Source: a virus. Taken from it: a DNA stretch of 64,000 nt. Below the pieces are notes generated by a model. That model worked only from the letters and a program-made list of their open reading frames with translations. It was not told where the DNA came from and made no database searches. The stretch spans positions 263,296 to 327,295 of the IMG/VR virus record IMGVR_UViG_3300028800_000001; one strand, given 5' to 3'. Position numbers and translations under genes: made by a program. Positions 25,984 through 60,400 of the stretch are shown here, one piece after another; within the stretch, counting starts at the first letter, position 1, and each line of letters begins with the position of its first letter.

Positions 25984-28560
25984 ATGGCACTAGCACTCGC
26001 ACCGCGACCATATCAGCAAGAAGCATTTGATGCGATTATGGCACAGAATATCAAAGCATTGGTGAAGCTCCCGACAGGGTGCGGGAAAACTTTGTTGTTC
26101 CCGATGTTGGCAAGGCATAAACGTTTTAGCAAAAAGATAACGCTTATTCTGGCAGAGCACGAAGAACTGTTAGAACAGGCCCGTGATAAGATTTTGCGCA
26201 TGTACCCCAATGCTGACGTTGGTATTGTGGGCTTTGGGAAAGCGGAGTGGGACCATCGGATAATTCTAGGGGGCGTGGATACGCTTTCCTATTCAAAGCG
26301 CTTAGAGAAATTGGCAACGCTGGATATCGGGTTAGTTATCTGTGACGAGTGTTTTCCGGCAGGAACACTTGTTGACGGGCGTCCTATTGAGACGTTGAAA
26401 GTTGGTGATACTGTCACGGCGTTTGATGAGAAAACGCAGACGTTTGCACAAAGACGTATCACTTCTGTCTCTCAGAAGTCGGCAGTAAGACTTTTAAAAA
26501 TTATAGTAAATGGTGCATCGGTAGTATGCACGCCAAACCATCCATTTTACACTGAATCTGGATGGAAATATGCTGAGAACATTTTGGTAGGAGAGAGAAT
26601 ACTGTATGCAAATCTTACTAGCAACGTGCCCGATTTGCGAGCAACAATTTCCGGTGTTGGAAAGTCACAAGCGAATCAAGTTCAGGAAAGGAATTCCAGT
26701 GTTTTGCTCACCAACATGCACAAAGATTGCAGTCTCAAAGATGAATTCAGAGAGAATGGCGAAGACAAACAAGAAATATGCTTCGCAGCGTATGAGAAGA
26801 AACAATCCGATGCGCAACGAATCTTCGAGAAAGAAAATGAGATCAACTTTGGTGGCAATGGGACATGTTCCGAAGATTCGTGGGGGCAACGGAAAAGGAT
26901 TAACAGTTCCGCAGCGGCTTTTGTTCGAGAGACTTGGTTGGGAACCGAAAGAAACTATTGTGAGAACGAACATAGTGAAAGCGGAGAATCTAGAGCGGTA
27001 TCCAACACATTACAAGGTGGACATTGGCAACGAAGCGCTGATGATAGCTATAGAAATCGATGGGGGGTCTCATTATTCGATAATGAGGAGAAAACAGGAC
27101 GCGAAGAAAACGAAGTTTCTTGTTGGAAGAGGGTGGACGGTATTGAGGTTTACGAACCAGGAAGTGATGGAACATTTGGAGGATTGTGTCCAGGCGGTTC
27201 AGTCTACAATTTTGAAGTCGAAGACCTCCATACCTATACAGCAAATGGCTTCGTAGTTCATAACTGCCATCATGCGGTCACCAAGAGCTATCTAGATATC
27301 TTTGCGGCCTGCAAAAATGCTTTTTTGTATGGCAATACTGCAACGGTGGATCGCCATGATCAGCGTGACATTACGGCTATCTTTGGCCCACCGGTTTACA
27401 GTAAATCTATTAATGAAATGATTGATGCCGAATATCTTTGTGGCATCGTTCCTTTTACTATTCGAACACAGAACACCATCAATGTTGCGGTTTCTGCAAC
27501 CTCTGGTGATTATAGTGAAGCGCGGCTGGAGCAGGCCGTCAATCGAAAGGATCGTAATGATTGCATCGTTCGGGCGTGTTGTGAAGAAAAGTATGGTGGA
27601 CCTGATTTGCCTACTGTTGTCTTTTGTGCTGGTACGCAGCATGCGAAAGAGCAGGCTTTGGCATATGTTCGAGCAGGAATACCTGCCGCGCATATTACGA
27701 TGGATGTTCCCAAAGAAATTCGTGAACAGCATTATGCTGATTTTGCTACCGGCGCAATTAAAGTCCTCACCAATGTCCAAATTCTTACTGAAGGATGGGA
27801 CGCGGATGTACGAAGGATTGTGTTTGCCCGTCCTACAAAAAGTCGCCCTCTCTTCACTCAAATGCTGGGGCGCGGGACTCGTATCGCTCCTGGTAAGGAA
27901 GCTTGTATTCTCTTAGATTTTACCGACAATTATCTTGACCATGATCTTGAGCCCTGCACACTAGAAGATGTTCTTGGTGTACCAGTACGCGAAGGGGTGG
28001 ATTGCCGAGAGGTTATTCGTAAAGAGAAGGAGGCCAGTGGTGGCGCGGTTCCTGAAGACGGTGAAGAGAAGAAAAAGCGTGAGAAGCAGGAAATTGACGA
28101 GCGCAACAAACTGGTTGAGAAGCAGCTCACGTTCCGCTACAAGTGGCAGCAGGTGCAAGGTGGCGCATACATTGCCACCGTTGGCGATAAGCGTGCCGGA
28201 GGCGATTTGATCCTCTACCCATCAAAAGCCGGTGGTTATATCGTCGGGGTCTCCTATAAAGAAACACCAATGGCAAAGCAACCAAAAGAGGTGGTGGTTG
28301 CAAGAAACGTGCCGCTTTCCTGGGCTCAATCAATTGCAGAGCAGCAAGGGAAAAACTTGCAACTGGGCAATTATCAATTTATTGATCCTGATGCTCCCTG
28401 GCGGAAAAGTAAGCCATCGCAGGCGCAACTTGACCAAATCAAAATGCTTTCAAAAGCAACTTATGGGAAAATTCTTCCAAAGAAGAATATGACCAAGGGT
28501 GAAGCTTCAGAACTGATCTCTAAAGGGTTTGCGCTCTTGCAGCAAAAAGGGAGAAAGTAA
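25984..28560 (+). CDS. SF2 DExH-box helicase interrupted by an intein in motif II (858-aa precursor)
   Basis: Motif I LPTGCGKT. Motif II is split as LVICDE|C...intein...HN|CHHA, restoring DECHH after splicing. Motifs V/VI ...VLTNVQILTEGWDA...FTQMLGRGTRIAP. C-terminal ~200-aa extension. Confidence 0.75.
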   Translation: MALALAPRPYQQEAFDAIMAQNIKALVKLPTGCGKTLLFPMLARHKRFSKKITLILAEHEELLEQARDKILRMYPNADVGIVGFGKAEWDHRIILGGVDTLSYSKRLEKLATLDIGLVICDECFPAGTLVDGRPIETLKVGDTVTAFDEKTQTFAQRRITSVSQKSAVRLLKIIVNGASVVCTPNHPFYTESGWKYAENILVGERILYANLTSNVPDLRATISGVGKSQANQVQERNSSVLLTNMHKDCSLKDEFRENGEDKQEICFAAYEKKQSDAQRIFEKENEINFGGNGTCSEDSWGQRKRINSSAAAFVRETWLGTERNYCENEHSESGESRAVSNTLQGGHWQRSADDSYRNRWGVSLFDNEEKTGREENEVSCWKRVDGIEVYEPGSDGTFGGLCPGGSVYNFEVEDLHTYTANGFVVHNCHHAVTKSYLDIFAACKNAFLYGNTATVDRHDQRDITAIFGPPVYSKSINEMIDAEYLCGIVPFTIRTQNTINVAVSATSGDYSEARLEQAVNRKDRNDCIVRACCEEKYGGPDLPTVVFCAGTQHAKEQALAYVRAGIPAAHITMDVPKEIREQHYADFATGAIKVLTNVQILTEGWDADVRRIVFARPTKSRPLFTQMLGRGTRIAPGKEACILLDFTDNYLDHDLEPCTLEDVLGVPVREGVDCREVIRKEKEASGGAVPEDGEEKKKREKQEIDERNKLVEKQLTFRYKWQQVQGGAYIATVGDKRAGGDLILYPSKAGGYIVGVSYKETPMAKQPKEVVVARNVPLSWAQSIAEQQGKNLQLGNYQFIDPDAPWRKSKPSQAQLDQIKMLSKATYGKILPKKNMTKGEASELISKGFALLQQKGRK
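26350..27264 (+). other. intein (305 aa) inserted in the helicase DECH box
   Basis: N-terminal Hint blocks CFPAGTLVDG...KVGDTV and CTPNHPFYTESGW. C-terminal blocks VYNFEVEDLHTYTANGFVVHN, followed by the +1 Cys. Boundaries come from codon arithmetic, with C123 at 26350. Confidence 0.7.
26606..27256 (+). CDS. nested out-of-frame gene inside the intein: Zn-finger + DUF559/Vsr-like PD-(D/E)xK endonuclease (216 aa), putative homing endonuclease
   Basis: Frame +2 relative to the helicase. N-terminal CPICEQQ...CSPTC. C-terminal KVDIGNEALMIAIEIDGGSHY...RRKQDAKKTKFLVGRGWTVLRFTNQEV matches the DUF559 core (vDf..klaIEvDG..H...D..R...L...GW.VlRF.n.ev). The helicase/intein frame stays open across the same 651 nt. 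Confidence 0.55.
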   Translation: MQILLATCPICEQQFPVLESHKRIKFRKGIPVFCSPTCTKIAVSKMNSERMAKTNKKYASQRMRRNNPMRNESSRKKMRSTLVAMGHVPKIRGGNGKGLTVPQRLLFERLGWEPKETIVRTNIVKAENLERYPTHYKVDIGNEALMIAIEIDGGSHYSIMRRKQDAKKTKFLVGRGWTVLRFTNQEVMEHLEDCVQAVQSTILKSKTSIPIQQMAS

Positions 28561-43218: not shown

Positions 43219-43683
43219 TTAAGAATCAAAGTAAATGTGCAGTGTTGGCTCTTTGGTAAGCATGAGTGATGCCTCTTTACAGATAAAGTGCATCCAGGCG
43301 AGAATGGCTTTTTGCCGCTCCGCTGCACCTTTTTGCTGACTGTAATACGCGACTGCATCAGGGTAATCCTCATCGCAGCCTGCGATGATTTCGTTAAGCA
43401 GCGTGAGAAATTTGGGAGTGATCGCAAGGAATACGTTGTTCGTAGCCTCTTCCCACGGACCACCGTAGATGTAATCTTCCAGGCTTTTCCCTTTTGCATT
43501 TTCAACCATGAGCACATCGCCCATTTCGTGCTCCAAGATGTTGATTTCGTTTTCTTTTCCAGCGAAGATTGAAAATCCTAACTCTTTGGTTTTTGTGCAG
43601 GACATAGGTTCGATAACGCTCTGACGATGATTGTCCGTAGTTTCTAAAACAAGGTTGCCAACGCTGATCGTGACAAGGCTCAT
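43219..43683 (-). CDS. hypothetical protein (154 aa)
   Basis: ORF track. Confidence 0.4.
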   Translation of the reverse strand: MSLVTISVGNLVLETTDNHRQSVIEPMSCTKTKELGFSIFAGKENEINILEHEMGDVLMVENAKGKSLEDYIYGGPWEEATNNVFLAITPKFLTLLNEIIAGCDEDYPDAVAYYSQQKGAAERQKAILAWMHFICKEASLMLTKEPTLHIYFDS

Positions 43684-44486
43684 AGCTGTACTCCTTTATT
43701 ATTTGCTGTGCGCACTCGTACTAAAAAATCCTCTAAAGTCTTTTTCGTCTCTTGCGCGGTGAAATCTGGCAGGCTGCTCAGCGCCTTGCATTCTTCTAGA
43801 TAGTTATAGAAGTGCTCAAGCGTGCGTTCATGTTCCCAACATGCCTGTTTTTCTATCCCCTCTATCCCTTCTTTGCGATACGCAAGTAGCGTTTGTATTG
43901 TGGGCACATCATATTCTTCTGCGAGCGTTGGGAGGCAATACTCAAGGGAACCAGAGCGCATCAGGTGAACGGCCATCAGTAGACAGCGATAGCAATGCAA
44001 CAACTTCTTCACGTCGTTGAGCTGCATACGTTTCTGTTGATTAAATGCCATGCCCCGATAATGATCAGCGCAGCGCTTCGAAAAACAACCAACAGCCAAT
44101 TTTTTGAGTTCCTGGTGCGCAGCTCCACTCACCAGTGGATCAGGTGTATAGAGGTCTTCGAGCGCGCTTCCGTTTCCTTTGATGAGTAAAAGCAGGTGTT
44201 TCTTCAGGTCGTGGGTCACCACTTCTAGATTCTCTTCTGGACGCTTTATCTCGATAGTATCGCCACCAGAAGGGAAGCCAAGTACATGCTCTAATGGAAG
44301 GCAATGCACGCCGTGAAAGTCTTGATCGGAAAACGATCCTTGCATGCCATAGAGGTGTGAACCGGAAAGCCCTAAGAATAAAATGGGGTATGGGTGGTCT
44401 AACTTCATAAAAGATCTCCTACAAAAAGTATTCAATATTACATTCACCTTGATGAAAGGTGAACTCCATCGGGCCAGCCTCATCAT
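43680..44486 (-). CDS. Pol-beta superfamily nucleotidyltransferase (268 aa)
   Basis: hG[GS]x9-13[DE]h[DE]h signature: LFLGLSGSHLYGMQGSFSDQDFHGV. Confidence 0.5.
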   Translation of the reverse strand: MMRLARWSSPFIKVNVILNTFCRRSFMKLDHPYPILFLGLSGSHLYGMQGSFSDQDFHGVHCLPLEHVLGFPSGGDTIEIKRPEENLEVVTHDLKKHLLLLIKGNGSALEDLYTPDPLVSGAAHQELKKLAVGCFSKRCADHYRGMAFNQQKRMQLNDVKKLLHCYRCLLMAVHLMRSGSLEYCLPTLAEEYDVPTIQTLLAYRKEGIEGIEKQACWEHERTLEHFYNYLEECKALSSLPDFTAQETKKTLEDFLVRVRTANNKGVQL

Positions 44487-46292: not shown

Positions 46293-46592
46293 CTAGACCT
46301 CCTGGTTGTACTGGTTGAAATAACCGTTAATTTTTTCGAGAGAAGAAAACCAGAGATATGCGGCGTTTTGGCCGTCGATCTGTGCTTTTCTACAGAAGGT
46401 TGGAGCGAGCGCTTTGACTACATCCACCTGAACGTTTAACTGCATCACACGGTACAGACGCTCTTGCTCGTGCCAGTAGTAGGCGCTTCCGTCTTCTTCC
46501 TGCCAGACCTGTATCTTAAACTGACGCATGATCAGGTGTGCGGTCGCGGTCATATCCTCTGGTGCTTGTGCGTTCTTTGGAAGTTTATTCAT
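46293..46592 (-). CDS. hypothetical protein (start adjusted to MNKLPKNAQAP, 99 aa)
   Basis: The minus-strand promoter TTGACG-N17-TATACT lies inside the ORF-track N-terminus. RBS CAAGGAG precedes the ATG at 46592. Confidence 0.4.
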   Translation of the reverse strand: MNKLPKNAQAPEDMTATAHLIMRQFKIQVWQEEDGSAYYWHEQERLYRVMQLNVQVDVVKALAPTFCRKAQIDGQNAAYLWFSSLEKINGYFNQYNQEV

Positions 46593-46616: not shown

Positions 46617-46728
46617 TCGTTTATTTCTTATACAGGAAGTATAGCTGAAAGGCGCTTCTACGTCAAGTATTTTTACCATGTATTTTCAGAAAAAAGAGGT
46701 TGACAGCCAAAAAAGTCTCTGCTATACT
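46617..46728. promoter_or_regulatory. back-to-back divergent sigma70-type promoters sharing the TGTATTTTCAGAA element
   Basis: Minus promoter: TTGACG (+46662-46667 revcomp), N17, TATACT. Plus promoter: TTGACA 46700-46705, N17 (gccaaaaaagtctctgc), TATACT 46723-46728. Confidence 0.55.
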
Positions 46729-46734
46729 AAGGAC

Positions 46735-47017
46735 TCAAGACTGGTGGCTAAGGCTCTTGCGGGTTGCTTCCCAATAAGAGAGTTGAAGGTGCGAAGAGAT
46801 AGAACGGTAGGGACTGTTTCTGCGGGGGTCGAAATGGAAACTATCAACGCGGAGCCACTCTCTTCCGTAGTAGGGCAGATGGTGTTTTTCTTGAAGACGG
46901 ACAGCAGGCGTTGAGAGAGAAATATCTTTGTTCCCAGGCACCGACCTGGAAAACGGTAGAGCAAAAAGCTTGCTCGGCAGAAAAGAACCTATAAATTATA
47001 GGTTCTTTTCTTTTTTG
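46735..47017 (+). ncRNA. candidate ~280-nt noncoding RNA, promoter-to-terminator unit with no convincing ORF
   Basis: Near-consensus promoter upstream and a strong intrinsic terminator at the end. Only a 26-codon ORF (METINAEPLSSVVGQMVFFLKTDSRR) with a weak SD lies inside. G-rich segments are capable of pairing (CTCTT...AAGAG; GGCTAAGGCTC...GCGGAGCC). Confidence 0.4.
46981..47017. terminator. intrinsic terminator (aaaagaacctata-aat-tataggttctttt then cttttttg), probably bidirectional
   Basis: 13-bp perfect stem, 3-nt loop and a T-run on the plus strand. The A-run on the other side also serves the minus-strand gene ending at 46996. Confidence 0.55.
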
Positions 47018-47340
47018 CCAGCGTAGTACGCACCATCACGCAACATTGTGCGTACTACTTTTTGGCAGGCAGTGCATTGATGCTTGCGCACGAGTATCAC
47101 ATGTGGTGTTATGACACCGCTGGCATTTATGCTATTTTGATCCCACTGCTCTTCTGCAAGAAAAACAAATTCGTGCGGTCCTTTCCCTTTCTTGCAGAAA
47201 TCTTTGGGATACTTTGCTGGGTGCCTTGGCAATTCTTCAGCCATCATGGAAACGAGTATATCATTTTTTGGGTGGCTTTGCTTTGGGAGCGGTTTTATCA
47301 CGATTATCAATCGTGCCATATTTTTCTTTATTAGGGGCAA
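46996..47340 (-). CDS. hypothetical protein (114 aa); reading frame uncertain
   Basis: ORF track. A strong RBS+ATG (TAAGGAGGATTATTATG, ATG at 47380) instead opens a 39-codon Lys/Pro-rich frame. Confidence 0.25.
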   Translation of the reverse strand: MPLIKKNMARLIIVIKPLPKQSHPKNDILVSMMAEELPRHPAKYPKDFCKKGKGPHEFVFLAEEQWDQNSINASGVITPHVILVRKHQCTACQKVVRTMLRDGAYYAGKKEKNL

Positions 47341-47391
47341 GACGCATATCGGGCGCGGTTGCCTTTTTGGGTTTTCCCATAATAATCCTCC

Positions 47392-47562
47392 TTATGCTTT
47401 CGCGCCAAGCGCATAAATGATAGCGGCAACGAGTGCGAGCACTGCGACGATACCATAGATGATTGCGTGCACGTATTGGCGTGCCATTCCGGCAGTGATC
47501 GCGATATCACCGCAGCGAACAGTAATAAAGACAAGCATGACAAAAAGTGGTTGTACGAGCAT
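47392..47562 (-). CDS. small 2-TM membrane protein (56 aa), holin-like, translationally coupled to the endolysin gene; below the ORF-track cutoff
   Basis: Minus-strand MLVQPLFVMLVFITVRCGDIAITAGMARQYVHAIIYGIVAVLALVAAIIYALGAKA. Its ATG lies 2 nt after the endolysin stop (TAATCATG). Confidence 0.4.
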   Translation of the reverse strand: MLVQPLFVMLVFITVRCGDIAITAGMARQYVHAIIYGIVAVLALVAAIIYALGAKA

Positions 47563-47564
47563 GA

Positions 47565-48704
47565 TTAGTTTCCTGTAAACTCTGAAGGGACGACATTTTG
47601 TGTTGATTTGAGTAATTCTTCCAGGTAACTGAGCACTTCGGTTGAGGTGATCTTTTGCGTTGTCGGCTGATTCGCCTGTAATGCACTCAGTTCTTTGGAA
47701 AGTGCGGTTGCGTTGGCGATAGCTGCGTCACGCTGTTGTTGCAAAATAACCATTTGTTTGCTCGTATCAGTCAGTGTTTGCTGGAGTGTTGCTGCTTGCT
47801 TTTGAAAGTTGGCCGCTTCTTCGGCTTCCTTAAAGAGATTGTCAATATGCGTCATATAGCAGTTGCTTGCCCCTGGAGGACTATCAAGCAGGTGGGAAGG
47901 GTCATAACTGATTTCACCGCGTTCAAAACGCTGTCGCGTTGCAGTACGGCCCTGATGATCAACAACAGAATGTCCAACATTGTCGAGTGCTTTCTCTTCG
48001 TTGCTTATTGGCAGGCCAAGGAGCGTAATGCCGTTGAGGCCAATATTGCCGACGTTTTGATAAAAGGCGAGAATATCGCCTCCAAGAAAGCAGCCATTCT
48101 TTTTGCATTGCCAGCGATTTGTGCCAACCAACTTAAAATAATTGGCAACAACAGGATTTCCGATATCAAGCATGGTATTTGCTCCTAAGAAGGTGAAGAG
48201 GCCGTCCCACGGGTACGTACCTGGGCAGTCGCGTCTGCTGACAGGATCGATAGAAAAGTGGCCGGTGATACCGCCTGTGGCGTCGGCTTTACGCGTCGGA
48301 ATATTCCAGCGCTGACAAATATGTTTAATGAGTGTAAAACTTGCCTGCTGCTGTTGTGGGGTGAGTGCGAGGCCATTGGTGACGTTATTGACGTGTTCAA
48401 TAGAGATAGTAACTAAGTTAGGATTGATTGACCACCAGGAATCCGCGCCTGCGGTAATCACCCCGTTTGCCCATGCCGCGTCATGTTCGCTGACGCATTG
48501 CACAATAATTCCATCACGTCCAACGACGTAGTGAGCTGAGACTTGCGATGCAGGGTTGGCAAAATAGTTGGCAATATTTTGTGCGGTTGGATCGCCTTGT
48601 GATCCGGTACCATGCAAAATAAGATGTGTAGGGCTGTGCCCATAGCGATTCGTCCACATATTTGCTGTTGGTATCCAGAGCGCTCCTGGTTCGTCCATGA
48701 TCAT
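47565..48704 (-). CDS. endolysin: N-acetylmuramoyl-L-alanine amidase (Amidase_2/PGRP) N-terminal domain plus C-terminal binding/coiled-coil region (379 aa)
   Basis: THLILHGTG, AHYVVGRDG, AAWANG and SIEHVNN are typical Amidase_2 zinc-amidase blocks. RBS GGGAGA. Confidence 0.7.
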   Translation of the reverse strand: MIMDEPGALWIPTANMWTNRYGHSPTHLILHGTGSQGDPTAQNIANYFANPASQVSAHYVVGRDGIIVQCVSEHDAAWANGVITAGADSWWSINPNLVTISIEHVNNVTNGLALTPQQQQASFTLIKHICQRWNIPTRKADATGGITGHFSIDPVSRRDCPGTYPWDGLFTFLGANTMLDIGNPVVANYFKLVGTNRWQCKKNGCFLGGDILAFYQNVGNIGLNGITLLGLPISNEEKALDNVGHSVVDHQGRTATRQRFERGEISYDPSHLLDSPPGASNCYMTHIDNLFKEAEEAANFQKQAATLQQTLTDTSKQMVILQQQRDAAIANATALSKELSALQANQPTTQKITSTEVLSYLEELLKSTQNVVPSEFTGN

Positions 48705-57879: not shown

Positions 57880-60400
57880 CACATCTTTTTCTGGTGTGCG
57901 CCCCGTGTGAATCAAATCAGGAACGCTTCAAACCGCTTGTATGAAGAGATATGTAAGATGTTTGAGTAAAAAATCTTGGTTCTTTCGAAATGACCGTACG
58001 AACGAGTCTTTGCGCTTTTCAAGCAAGGCGTGTGAACAAGAATGACAGTTTTTCAAGGTAGAAGTATGAGTCAGGTGTGTTCGTTTTTTCAGGAAAGGGA
58101 TGCGAGTCTAATTTACAGCGTGTTCAAAAAAAAAGTGTATGAGTAAGACAGGTCTGATCATTCAAGAAAGGTGTACGAACCGCCCATGAGGTGTTTCAAG
58201 TGGTGCGTGTGAACTATTCCTAGCGTGTTTTTAAAATAGCCGTGTGAACCGAATAAGTTGTTTTCCCAATGAAAGGGTATGAATCGCTCCTGGCGTAGAG
58301 CAAAATTACTGTATGAACGATACATCAAGTTGTTTCAAAAAAGTCGCGTGAGCACACACGCTTTGGTTGAGGCAATACATGAGAGCGAATTTTTGGATAT
58401 GGAGAGGGGTCAAGATAGAGGAATGAGTTATCTTTCACCTGCGCTTTCAGAGAAAGGGTACGAATCAGTTTAATCGTCTTTTCATTTCATGAGCATGAGC
58501 GAACTTTTGTGTAGCGTCAAAATTCTGGTGCGAATTCAATTGCAAAGTTTTTCATACAAGTGGTATGAGTCATTCCACCTGGAGGTTCAATTTAACTGTA
58601 CGAGTCGTTTGGAATGCGGTTTCAAGAACGCTGTACGAGTCAAATCACCGGTTTTTCTATGCGGGATGGTGCGAGTCAATTAATATGTTTATCGTAAACG
58701 ATGTGTATGAACGGAAGGCAACGATTTTTTCAGGATATAGGTTTGAAGCAAGTTCCATGTTTTTCGAAGTAACCGTTTGAGCCATTAAGAGCGTCTCGGC
58801 CAGCGAAAAGGTATGAGCAGCAGGGGCAACGAGTGATCAGGACATAGGTGCGAAACACTACATTGATTGTAGCAAAATACCGGTTTGAATCAATTCGCGG
58901 ATGCAATCATTCTAATGGAGTGAGCAAACTATCAAAGTGGTTTCAATTAGTAGGTGCGATTCTTGTCCTGGGTCGTTTCTCAAGACACGTGAGAGCCAAG
59001 GAAAGTGGAGATCAATTTGTGGAGGCGAACCAATACGACAGTGTTTCATGGTTTACGTCTGAGCAGATATAAGGGATTTCTCATATCATATATACGAAAC
59101 AAGAAGCCAGTTTTCACGATTGACGTTTGAGTAAGAATTATTGTTTCTTCATAATGTACGTACGATTCATCTATCTAGTGTGTCAAAATTCAAGTAAGAG
59201 TCAGCAAGCCAGTTTTCACGGTTAACGTTTGAGTAAGGTGAAAGTTTTTTTCATAGCACAGGTACGAAACGAGAAGCCAGTCTCTCCATAATTGACGTTT
59301 GAACGCCATTCAGCAGTAATGCAGATGTGAGCCATGCTCCAGATACTTTTCATAAAGGGAGAGCGAGTCAATTGTATGTCGCTGCAATACATTGTTGTGA
59401 ATGAATGTAAGACGTACCTTCAAAGCGAGCGTATGAGTAAAAGGTTCAGTTGTCTCAAACTATGAGTACGAATGGATGGAATACGTGGCGCACCAAATTA
59501 AGCGTATGAGCAAAACGGTAAGGTTACTTCAGGATGAGTGAGCGAGTTCGAATAAGGGTAAGACTCAGTTTGTAGGTACGATCCAGGTTCCATGTAGACG
59601 CAAATAAGGGAGAGAGCCACTAAAAAGGTATGATCATCTAAGGGGAACGATCCATGTTAGCTGTCCGGTCACTGATCTGGTGTGAATAAACGCGGCTTGT
59701 TTTGAACAAATAGAAGGTATGAACTATTAGCGATGTATACTTCTTAGAAGGAGATTGAGTTCTTTACGATGTGCTTTCAGATTATTGGTACGAATTATTG
59801 GCGAAGTCTTTTCATAAAAGCCGAATGAGCAAGCAATGCTGTTTTTCAAATTGCTGGTGTGAGCAGATAGCTTTAGTTTTTCATAATCGGCGTGTGAGTC
59901 TTATAATGAGTCTGTTTGTACATGGTGCACGAGCCAACCATTCTGTAGAACAAAAAGGTGACGCGAATCATTTCTAAGGCGAGTTCAAGTATAATGTGTG
60001 AGTCGCAATGAGAAGTGCAGACAAATTGCATGTACGAATTGCAAAAGGTGTATACACAAGAGAATCGTGTGAGTCAGGAATTGTGTTTTTTCAAGTTGTA
60101 GCTACGAGTTATGATAAAAGTGTCTTTCAACTAAGCAGTGCGAACACAGGATAATTGTAGTGTAAGAAACTGGTGTGATCCTTGATAGTAGTCTTTTTAT
60201 TCAACTAGCGAGAAGCAAGAAAAGCCGTCTCCATCAATAAAGAAGTTTGAACGAAGCATGATGTTTCTTTCATGTAGGTAAGTGAATCAGTCGCTATGTG
60301 TTTCAAAATAAATGTATGAGTCCAGCGAGCTGTCGTATCAGATGTTGTCTACGAAACAACAATTATGTTATTACAAAATCCTTGTTTGAACCGAAAGGAG
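57880..60400 (+). repeat. main body of the degenerate tandem-repeat field (about 2.5 kb, several dozen ~30-45-bp units; consensus GTTTTTCAA-N5-9-GGTGTGAGTCA)
   Basis: Continuous run of units such as tttttcaaggtagaagtatgagtcagg; gttttttcaggaaagggatgcgagtc; gtgtttcaagtggtgcgtgtgaact; gtttttcaaattgctggtgtgagcag; gtttttcataatcggcgtgtgagtc; gtttcaaaataaatgtatgagtcc. No ORF above 75 codons. Confidence 0.65.

What the first reader, a model, noticed from the sequence alone, without database searches (positions are those of the whole stretch)
46700..47017. Promoter-to-terminator unit with no plausible ORF: candidate ~280-nt structured ncRNA
A near-consensus promoter (TTGACA-N17-TATACT) is followed by ~250 nt lacking any ORF above 26 codons and ends in a textbook intrinsic terminator (13-bp stem, T-run). 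The interior is G-rich relative to its neighbourhood and has several complementary stretches. I could not match it to tmRNA, RNase P or a tRNA by eye.
Basis: seen in the sequence. Interest (0 to 1): 0.6.

Follow-up and report, generated by a model that had tools for sequence, protein, structure and literature searches.

The report
Conserved orphan non-coding RNA gene in phage
A roughly 280-base stretch beside the cell-lysis genes of an uncultivated giant soil phage looks like a real stand-alone RNA gene that makes no protein, matches no described RNA family, and has no established function.

Summary
Window 46700-47017 (+) has an 11/12 sigma-70-type promoter with an extended -10, a G-rich body of about 245 nt, and a 15-bp hairpin followed by a T-run.

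Only two diverged relatives could be found, in metagenomic contigs of related phages (L006/L007/L017 and L005). Both keep the -35 box, the TG-extended -10, the 17-nt spacing and the terminator, while the promoter spacer and the neighbouring genes change.

The body does not evolve like coding sequence. Differences fall 20/20/17 over codon positions, indels are 1-3 nt, and every candidate peptide is lost or changes length. Two blocks are 89% identical, more than the adjacent genes (78-83%).

Two hairpins and the terminator stem keep their pairing through changes on both sides. Their loops are invariant.

No Rfam family matches any of the three copies, and no tRNA or tmRNA was found.

Best reading: a new, narrowly distributed phage non-coding RNA, transcribed by host RNA polymerase and convergent with the lysis cassette. 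It probably acts in trans as a folded RNA. The function is inferred, not shown. With only three sequences and no expression data, the long-range fold stays unresolved.

The parts
46700..46728 (+). Sigma-70-type promoter of the RNA: TTGACA, 17 nt, TG-extended TATACT
   Evidence: 11 of 12, TG present. The -35 TTGAC, the TGC before the -10 and the 17-nt spacing are kept in L006 (TTGACA/TAAAAT) and L005 (TTGACC/TACAGT). Over the whole promoter segment identity is only 52-62%.
46735..47017 (+). Predicted transcript of about 281 nt. The 5' end is inferred as 7 nt after the -10; the 3' end is in the T-run.
   Evidence: Sequence; folding z = -3.6; homologues at L006 7694-8010(-) and L005 6444-6704(-) by nhmmer. 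No experimental ends.
46744..46751 (+). Invariant 5' block GUGGCUAA
   Evidence: Identical in all three lineages. It can pair with the 3' block AG.CACC (RNAalifold), or perfectly with AGCCAC at 46853-46858.
46752..46784 (+). Hairpin P2: a 7-bp outer stem, an internal loop (GC / AAUAA), a 3-bp inner stem and the loop UUGCUU
   Evidence: Four pairs change on both sides in L005 and stay paired. Pair probability is 0.79-1.0 in all three sequences. Loop GCUU is invariant.
46793..46865 (+). Central domain: tentative helix P3 (GAAGAGA 46793-46799 with UCUCUUC 46859-46865) enclosing hairpin P4 (46806-46845) and the invariant GGAGCCAC (46851-46858)
   Evidence: P4 is kept between the window and L006 with one-sided changes, and is deleted in L005. 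P3 shows two compensatory pairs only after a gapless re-alignment of L005, and has low probability when each sequence is folded alone.
46936..46961 (+). Conserved 3' block AGGCACCG-ACCUGG-AAAACGG-UAGAG
   Evidence: 89% identical to L006 and 77% to L005. It is the predicted partner of the 5' block.
46959..46975 (+). Hairpin P6: GAGCAA, loop AAAGC, UUGCUC
   Evidence: Two pairs change on both sides. Loop AAAGC is invariant, and its AAGC is complementary to the GCUU of the P2 loop (read from the sequence).
46979..47017 (.). Terminator: a 15-bp hairpin with an A-run and a T-run, usable on both strands. The + strand has the longer T-run.
   Evidence: In L005 the inner stem sequence differs but pairing is kept (three compensatory pairs) and 8 T follow. 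On the - strand the stem holds the last codons (KEKNL, stop) of the 83-residue ORF.
46638..46666 (-). Back-to-back divergent promoter (TTGACG, 17 nt, TATACT) for the leftward gene string. This is context, not part of the RNA.
   Evidence: TATACT and the 17-nt spacing are kept in L006 and L005.
46996..47247 (-). Context: an 83-residue ORF with a CxxC motif, convergent with the RNA and ending inside the terminator
   Evidence: Compared with L006 it looks coding: 12/6/22 differences by codon position and no gaps. Absent in L005. Not called on the public contigs of this lineage.
47261..48704 (-). Context: lysis cassette convergent with the RNA. It comprises an amidase (47565-48704), a 56-residue hydrophobic protein (47392-47562) and a 39-residue Lys-rich protein (47261-47380).
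   Evidence: Pfam Amidase_2 E = 4.8e-25; PHROG endolysin families. The same three genes sit next to the RNA terminator in all three lineages.

Best explanation
This is a stand-alone gene for a non-coding RNA of about 230-285 nt, conserved in a small clade of uncultivated, probably jumbo, phages whose endolysin points to Ktedonobacteria hosts. It is transcribed from its own host-type (sigma-70, extended -10) promoter. That promoter sits back-to-back with the promoter of a variable leftward gene string. Transcription runs towards the 3' end of the lysis cassette and stops at a strong terminator shared with that cassette.

The RNA folds into several hairpins with invariant loops (P2, P6, the terminator, and P4 in two lineages). 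A core is built from the conserved 5' and 3' blocks around a variable, partly dispensable central domain.

What is shown: the unit is conserved, it evolves as non-coding sequence, and it shows local base-pair covariation.

What is inferred: the RNA is released as a discrete molecule and acts in trans through its fold, as a protein-binding or decoy RNA, rather than through one short antisense seed or as a cis leader. The host-type promoter suggests expression by host RNA polymerase, that is, early or constitutive.
For: The promoter and terminator are near consensus. Both are kept in two diverged lineages while the spacer sequence, the upstream spacer (about 50-65% identity) and the flanking genes differ.

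The 5' and 3' blocks are each 89% identical between the window and L006. The adjacent coding genes are 78-83% identical.

The body shows no codon periodicity (20/20/17) and has 1-3-nt indels. The neighbouring 39-residue gene shows 4/3/20. No peptide is conserved on either strand.

RNAalifold finds 10 pairs kept through changes on both sides. On helices P2, P3 and P6, 91% of cells are paired, against 42-61% when partners are slid. Six pairs change on both sides, against 0-1 in the slid controls, and only 2-4 of 500 shuffles reach the observed values. The terminator stem has three compensatory pairs.

Folding z-scores are -3.6 (window) and -4.15 (L006).

Several separate invariant blocks and invariant hairpin loops fit a folded RNA with tertiary or protein contacts better than a single-seed antisense RNA. 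There is no + strand gene for about 10 kb downstream, so it is not a leader.
Against: There is no expression data. There are only three independent sequences, so covariation rests on a few events, mostly on the L005 branch. The L005 copy does not fold better than shuffles (z = -0.37).

The long-range helices involve invariant bases and are ambiguous. GUGGCU can pair with AG.CACC or with AGCCAC. P3 has low probability when each sequence is folded alone.

No partner protein or target was identified. Duplex scans against neighbouring translation starts gave nothing conserved. The trans-acting, fold-dependent mechanism is therefore a preference, not a result.
Confidence: 0.6

Rival explanations
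1. The RNA is an antisense or interference regulator of the lysis cassette. It is made convergently to the lysis operon. It would dampen holin and endolysin expression in one of three ways: pairing at the shared 3' end, polymerase collision, or antisense read-through past a leaky terminator. This would resemble the 3'-overlapping antitoxin RNAs of type I toxin-antitoxin pairs.
For: In all three lineages the unit faces the 3' end of the same amidase / small membrane protein / 39-residue cassette, while the genes on its other side differ. The two share a two-way terminator. A small hydrophobic 56-residue protein lies in the cassette.
Against: The overlap with the convergent mRNA is only the 33-nt terminator hairpin. 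The + strand T-run is long and conserved (6, 6 and 8 T), which argues for efficient stopping. The conserved blocks lie far from the overlap. No conserved complementarity to the start regions of the lysis genes was found. The one 13-nt match in L005 is not kept in the window. blastn of the RNA against the window gave only chance-level complementary hits.
Confidence: 0.15
2. The RNA body has no function of its own. Selection maintains the divergent promoter pair and the two-way terminator as an insulator between the lysis operon and the leftward operon. The sequence between them is a spacer, or carries DNA-level sites such as operators, an origin or a packaging signal.
For: Both promoters and the terminator are conserved. 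A G-rich transcript could favour an R-loop (inference). The central 40-60 nt can be deleted, as in L005.
Against: Blocks inside the body are more conserved than the neighbouring genes. Hairpin stems change on both sides while their loops stay invariant. DNA-binding sites would not predict that pattern.
Confidence: 0.1
3. The RNA is a cis-acting sensor: a riboswitch, attenuator or processive-antitermination element. Its fold would decide whether polymerase stops at 47017 or reads on as antisense RNA.
For: The layout is a conserved structured region directly followed by an intrinsic terminator. GUGGCU has two alternative conserved partners, which could be a switch.
Against: There is no + strand gene downstream for about 10 kb. 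No conserved alternative pairing with the 5' arm of the terminator was found by reading: L005 has one, but the window does not. No Rfam riboswitch or leader matches, even weakly.
Confidence: 0.08
4. The unit is a small-protein gene. Candidates are the GTG-initiated 'VAK...' frame starting at 46744, or the 26- and 27-residue ORFs.
For: GTG-GCT-AA(G/A) is invariant and opens a frame in all three lineages. GGGGG lies 5 nt before the ATG at 46834.
Against: The VAK frame is 56, 16 and 20 codons long in the three lineages. Over its first 15 codons, the window and L005 differ 6/5/4 by codon position (read from the sequences printed). The ATG at 46834 is lost and the frame shifted in L006, and the region is deleted in L005. 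The 27-residue ORF is frameshifted by a 2-nt indel. Overall periodicity is 20/20/17. No Shine-Dalgarno sequence lies inside the predicted transcript ahead of the GTG.
Confidence: 0.04

Closest known systems
Stand-alone phage or prophage non-coding RNAs with their own promoter and terminator, such as lambda OOP, P22 sar, P4 CI RNA and phi29 pRNA (from my own knowledge; see also the review PMC10884466)
   Same: It is a phage-encoded, untranslated, discrete transcription unit driven by a host-type promoter and ended by an intrinsic terminator. It is comparable in size to the 174-nt phi29 pRNA and, like it, has conserved loops on covarying stems.
   Different: There is no sequence or Rfam match to any of them. 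Unlike OOP and sar, it does not overlap a gene in antisense. Its genome position and phage type differ from phi29. No function has been shown.
3'-overlapping antitoxin RNAs of type I toxin-antitoxin pairs on Bacillus prophages: RatA/txpA and SR4/bsrG (from my own knowledge)
   Same: It is transcribed convergently to a cassette holding a small hydrophobic protein, shares a two-way terminator with it, is 160-280 nt long, and sits in a phage.
   Different: Those RNAs overlap the toxin mRNA by roughly 75-120 nt. Here the overlap is only the 33-nt terminator. The gene nearest to the RNA is not the membrane protein.
Lambda pR'-tR' '6S' transcript next to the lysis genes (from my own knowledge)
   Same: A strong constitutive promoter, about 200 nt of untranslated RNA and a strong terminator, all adjacent to the lysis cassette.
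   Different: In lambda the unit lies upstream of the lysis genes, runs in the same direction, and is the substrate of Q antitermination. Here it is convergent, so read-through would be antisense.
Orphan structured RNAs found in phages and metagenomes, such as GOLLD, ROOL, HEARO and raiA (Rfam families; discovery pipelines described in PMC5737381 and PMC8632094)
   Same: It is recognised only by comparative sequence analysis, it has covarying stems with conserved loops, and its function is unknown.
   Different: None of these families matches. It is much smaller than GOLLD or ROOL and is so far limited to three lineages.
RNA anti-CRISPRs, which are solitary CRISPR-repeat mimics (Camara-Wilpert et al. 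2023, cited in PMC10884466)
   Same: A phage-encoded small RNA. In the window, GUUCCCAGGCACCGACCUGGAAAAC superficially resembles a type I repeat: a GUU start, a hairpin, and a GAAAC-like tail (from my own knowledge).
   Different: The hairpin is not kept in L005, where only GGCACCG and AAAACGG are conserved. No host repeat was available for comparison.

Membership tests
Any Rfam 15 family (including tmRNA, RNase P, 6S, SRP RNA, Y RNA-like, pRNA, GOLLD, ROOL, HEARO, riboswitches) | Score at or above the family's gathering threshold against its covariance model | tested here: not met
   There were 0 matches in the whole window and none in the L005 or L006 RNA regions. Permissive scans of all three copies gave only terminator-hairpin noise and no family shared between them.
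tRNA / tmRNA | Cloverleaf or tRNA-like domain with a tag reading frame | tested here: not met
   ARAGORN found 0 genes in the window.
Small protein gene | A reading frame kept in homologues, with changes concentrated at third codon positions and indels in multiples of three | tested here: not met
   ORF lengths are 56, 16 and 20 codons. The ATG of the 26-residue ORF is lost. Periodicity is 20/20/17 and indels are 1-3 nt.
Riboswitch or cis-regulatory leader | Lies upstream of, and on the same strand as, the gene it controls | tested here: not met
   Every gene from 36051 to 56082 is on the - strand. The next + strand gene is near 56982.
Riboswitch or cis-regulatory leader | A conserved alternative (antiterminator) pairing that competes with the terminator | tested here: inconclusive
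   An 8-nt match to the 5' arm of the terminator exists in L005 only. It is not conserved in the window or L006 (read).
Type I antitoxin-like cis-antisense RNA | Extended complementarity (tens of nt beyond the terminator) to the mRNA of a small toxic membrane protein | tested here: not met
   The overlap with the convergent transcript is the 33-nt terminator only. No conserved duplex with the start region of the 56-residue protein was found.
Structured non-coding RNA (generic criterion) | Base pairs maintained by compensatory substitutions across homologues | tested here: met
   P2, P6 and the terminator meet it. RNAalifold finds 10 doubly changed pairs. 91% of cells are paired against 42-61% in the slid controls, and 2-4 of 500 shuffles reach the observed values. 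Power is limited to three sequences.
Structured non-coding RNA (generic criterion) | A detected transcript with defined ends | not testable with these tools
   No transcriptome data are available. The ends are inferred from the promoter and terminator.
RNA anti-CRISPR (repeat mimic) | Sequence and structure match to the CRISPR repeat of the host | not testable with these tools
   The host is unknown and no repeat set was available. The repeat-like hairpin is not conserved in L005.

The most novel reading that the evidence does not exclude
The RNA is a new class of sensor placed against the lysis cassette. Its conserved core is GUGGCU with two alternative conserved partners, plus a possible P2-P6 loop-loop contact. 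This core would respond to a phage or host factor and set how much polymerase passes the shared terminator. Read-through would make antisense RNA across the holin and endolysin genes, which would amount to an RNA-based lysis clock. The evidence does not exclude this, but nothing here supports it directly.
Probability: 0.07. Interest if true: 0.75.

Novelty: new member of a known kind. Interest (0 to 1): 0.4.

Why it matters
Few phage non-coding RNAs are described, and none is known to me from phages of Chloroflexota. This is a compact, independently transcribed RNA that stays at a fixed position, facing the lysis genes, while the neighbouring genes turn over. That pattern suggests a function the phage keeps under selection. 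If expression and a partner were found, it would add a new RNA family, and possibly a new way for a large phage to control timing or handle its host. As it stands it is a well-supported orphan RNA with a very narrow known distribution. It is worth adding to RNA family collections but does not change any concept.

Tried and rejected
1. Known RNA families. Rfam at gathering score on the window and on nine loci gave nothing. Permissive scans on all three copies gave only terminator-like noise. ARAGORN found nothing.

2. More homologues.
- blastn against GenBank phages: no match.
- Three pattern scans of IMG/VR: 0 hits.
- Amidase search in IMG/VR: no relative.
- Metagenome scan with the 3' block: only L017 is real, and it is the same contig as L007. 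L011-L016 and L018 are chance hits in coding or ORF-poor DNA.
- Genome scan with the 5' block: L019 is a chance hit inside an aminotransferase-like ORF.
- Loci around more distant amidase relatives at 45-52% identity (L009, L010, L020, L021) lack the RNA by nhmmer.
- Protein searches with the 99- and 153-residue neighbours returned only themselves.

3. Paralogues in the window: none.

4. Peptides on either strand: rejected.

5. Trans targets. Duplex scans against translation start regions in the three phages found nothing conserved. A 13-nt match in L005 upstream of its holin-like gene is not kept in the window.

6. The minimum-free-energy fold of the window's central region is not conserved in L006, so it was dropped in favour of P4.

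7. The second hairpin with a T-run at 47021-47058 is not conserved. It lies in coding sequence on the - strand.

8. A 6S-like rod, SRP RNA, RNase P and Y RNA were considered from memory. None has Rfam support.

Full report
**What is in the sequence.**
Window 46700-46728 (+) reads TTGACA, 17 nt, TATACT, with TG before the -10. This matches 11 of 12 positions and is the best promoter-like site between 44000 and 50000.

A 15-bp hairpin lies at 46979-47011. Its arms are AGAAAAGAACCUAUA and UAUAGGUUCUUUUCU, with a 3-nt loop. TTTTTT follows it.

The body between them is 31.6% G, the 99th percentile for this window. It is predicted to fold better than shuffled versions, with z = -3.6.

A second promoter (TTGACG, 17 nt, TATACT) sits back-to-back on the - strand at 46666..46638. 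It serves a 99-residue gene at 46293-46592, which has an AAGGAG ribosome-binding site.

With GTG and TTG starts there is a 56-codon frame from 46744.

**Context.**
All real genes from about 36 kb to 56 kb are on the - strand.

To the right of the unit, and convergent with it, lies a lysis cassette:
- an Amidase_2 endolysin at 47565-48704;
- a 56-residue hydrophobic protein;
- a 39-residue Lys-rich protein.

In this lineage there is also an 83-residue CxxC ORF at 46996-47247. Its last codons lie in the terminator stem.

The window belongs to a metagenomic contig family whose longest member is 327 kb. It carries phage-type genes. Named homologues of the endolysin are from Ktedonobacteria. The "jumbo phage of Ktedonobacteria" label is an inference from these results.

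Public gene callers placed no gene between 46593 and 47260.

**Homologues.**
The same phage occurs in several samples with an identical RNA region.

Through the endolysin I found two diverged lineages. L006 (= L007 = L017) has an endolysin 74% identical to the window's, and L005 has one 81% identical.

nhmmer finds the unit in both, on the strand opposite the endolysin. Nothing else was found in any of the following:
- GenBank phages;
- IMG/VR;
- JGI metagenomes;
- GTDB genomes;
- more distant endolysin neighbourhoods.

All conclusions therefore rest on three independent sequences.

**The transcription unit is under selection.**
All three lineages keep TTGAC, a 17-nt spacer, and TGC followed by a -10 hexamer (TATACT, TAAAAT or TACAGT). 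Across the whole promoter segment, identity is only 52-62%.

All three end in a hairpin with a T-run of 6, 6 or 8 T. In L005 the inner stem has a different sequence but still pairs, with three doubly changed pairs.

The divergent - strand promoter is also kept.

The flanking genes are not kept. The first leftward gene is a 99-residue protein in the window. In L006 it is a homologue of the window's 153-residue protein. In L005 it is a homologue of the window's 110-residue protein. The 83-residue ORF is absent from L005.

The unit always faces the 3' end of the lysis cassette.

**It is not coding.**
Differences between the window and L006 fall 20/20/17 over the three codon positions in any frame. 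Indels are 1, 1, 1, 3, 2 and 1 nt.

By contrast, the 39-residue gene next door shows 4/3/20 and the 83-residue ORF shows 12/6/22.

The 26-residue ORF loses its ATG and shifts frame in L006, and it lies in a region deleted in L005. The 27-residue ORF is frameshifted.

The invariant GTG-GCT-AA opens frames of 56, 16 and 20 codons. Over the first 15 codons, the differences between the window and L005 fall 6/5/4 by position (read). Antisense ORFs also differ in length and sequence.

**RNA-level constraint.**
The 5' block (46741-46805) and the 3' block (46933-46978) are each 89% identical to L006. That exceeds the neighbouring genes (78-83%) and is far above the spacers (about 50-65%).

RNAalifold predicts 52 pairs, and 10 of them are kept through changes on both sides.

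| Helix | Window coordinates | Compensatory pairs | Other support |
|---|---|---|---|
| P2 | 46752-46784 | 4 | Pair probability 0.8-1.0 in all three sequences |
| P6 | 46959-46975 | 2 | |
| Terminator | 46979-47011 | 3 | |

Counted on the MAFFT alignment, 91% of cells in P2, P3 and P6 are paired. The figure is 42-61% when partners are slid by 1-3 columns. Six pairs change on both sides, against 0-1 in the slid controls. Only 2-4 of 500 shuffles reach the observed values.

The loops of P2 (GCUU) and P6 (AAAGC) are invariant and complementary over 4 nt. This is a possible loop-loop contact, read from the sequence and not tested.

**What is unresolved.**
GUGGCU (46744-46749) can pair with the 3' block AG.CACC, which gives a closing helix in the RNAalifold consensus. 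It can also pair perfectly with AGCCAC at 46853-46858. All the bases involved are invariant, so neither option is tested.

P3 (GAAGAGA with UCUCUUC) shows two compensatory pairs only after I re-aligned L005 without gaps. It has low probability when each sequence is folded alone.

P4 exists only in the window and L006. L005 lacks about 42 nt there and is 233 nt long, so the central domain is partly dispensable.

The L005 RNA does not fold better than shuffles, with z = -0.37.

**Comparison with what is known.**
No Rfam family matches any copy, even weakly. No tRNA or tmRNA was found.

By layout it resembles stand-alone phage RNAs. In its convergent position, it also resembles the 3'-overlapping antitoxin RNAs of type I systems, but here the overlap is only the terminator.

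It is not a leader, because no + strand gene follows it. No conserved complementarity to nearby start regions was found.

**Verdict.**
This is a real, conserved, independently transcribed non-coding RNA gene of a new and, so far, tiny family. I put confidence that it is a functional RNA gene at about 0.75.

The mechanism is inferred. I favour a trans-acting folded RNA that binds a protein or acts as a decoy, because there are several separate invariant blocks and loops. The main rivals are a role tied to the convergent lysis cassette, and a non-functional spacer between conserved signals.

Expression data and a larger alignment are the decisive missing pieces.

Noticed in passing
window 56982-57866 (+), with 56257-56981 and 57916-60297: A 294-residue ORF matches the IS110/IS116/IS902 transposase C-terminal domain (Pfam Transposase_20, E = 1.8e-5) and PHROG 4285 'transposase' (E = 1.7e-45). 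It is flanked by 725 nt and 2.4 kb with no ORF of 90 or more residues. IS110-type recombinases are known to use an RNA made from their non-coding end (from my own knowledge). Rfam found nothing there.
   Followed up: partly
window 46996-47247 (-): An 83-residue ORF with a CxxC motif was not called on the public contigs of this lineage, yet it evolves like coding sequence compared with L006 (12/6/22 by codon position, no gaps). It is absent from L005. Its last five codons and its stop lie in the terminator stem.
   Followed up: partly
window 47261-47380 (-): A 39-residue, very Lys-rich protein has a strong AAGGAGG site and is conserved in all three lineages. In L005 it lies directly next to the RNA terminator. 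It has no Pfam match. It could be a nucleic-acid-binding peptide, but this is untested.
   Followed up: no
window 25984-28560 (+): A superfamily-2 helicase is interrupted by an intein (ResIII and Helicase_C together with PT-HINT / Intein_splicing).
   Followed up: no
window 43680-44486 (-); L006 8891-9604: An RlaP-type nucleotidyltransferase (RNA-repair-associated polymerase beta family, E = 1.2e-31) lies 0.9-2.3 kb from the RNA in two lineages. No link to the RNA was established.
   Followed up: no
window 47021-47058 (+): A second hairpin with a T-run lies just after the main terminator. It is present only in this lineage. In L006 the stem is destroyed by substitutions in the 83-residue ORF.
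   Followed up: yes
L011 296-367 and L018 144-217: Two ORF-poor contigs from one project matched the 3'-block pattern. They also share GCAGGCGTT upstream of it, inside a 17-bp helix. nhmmer E is 0.07-0.08, so I judged them chance matches, but the resemblance was not excluded.
   Followed up: partly
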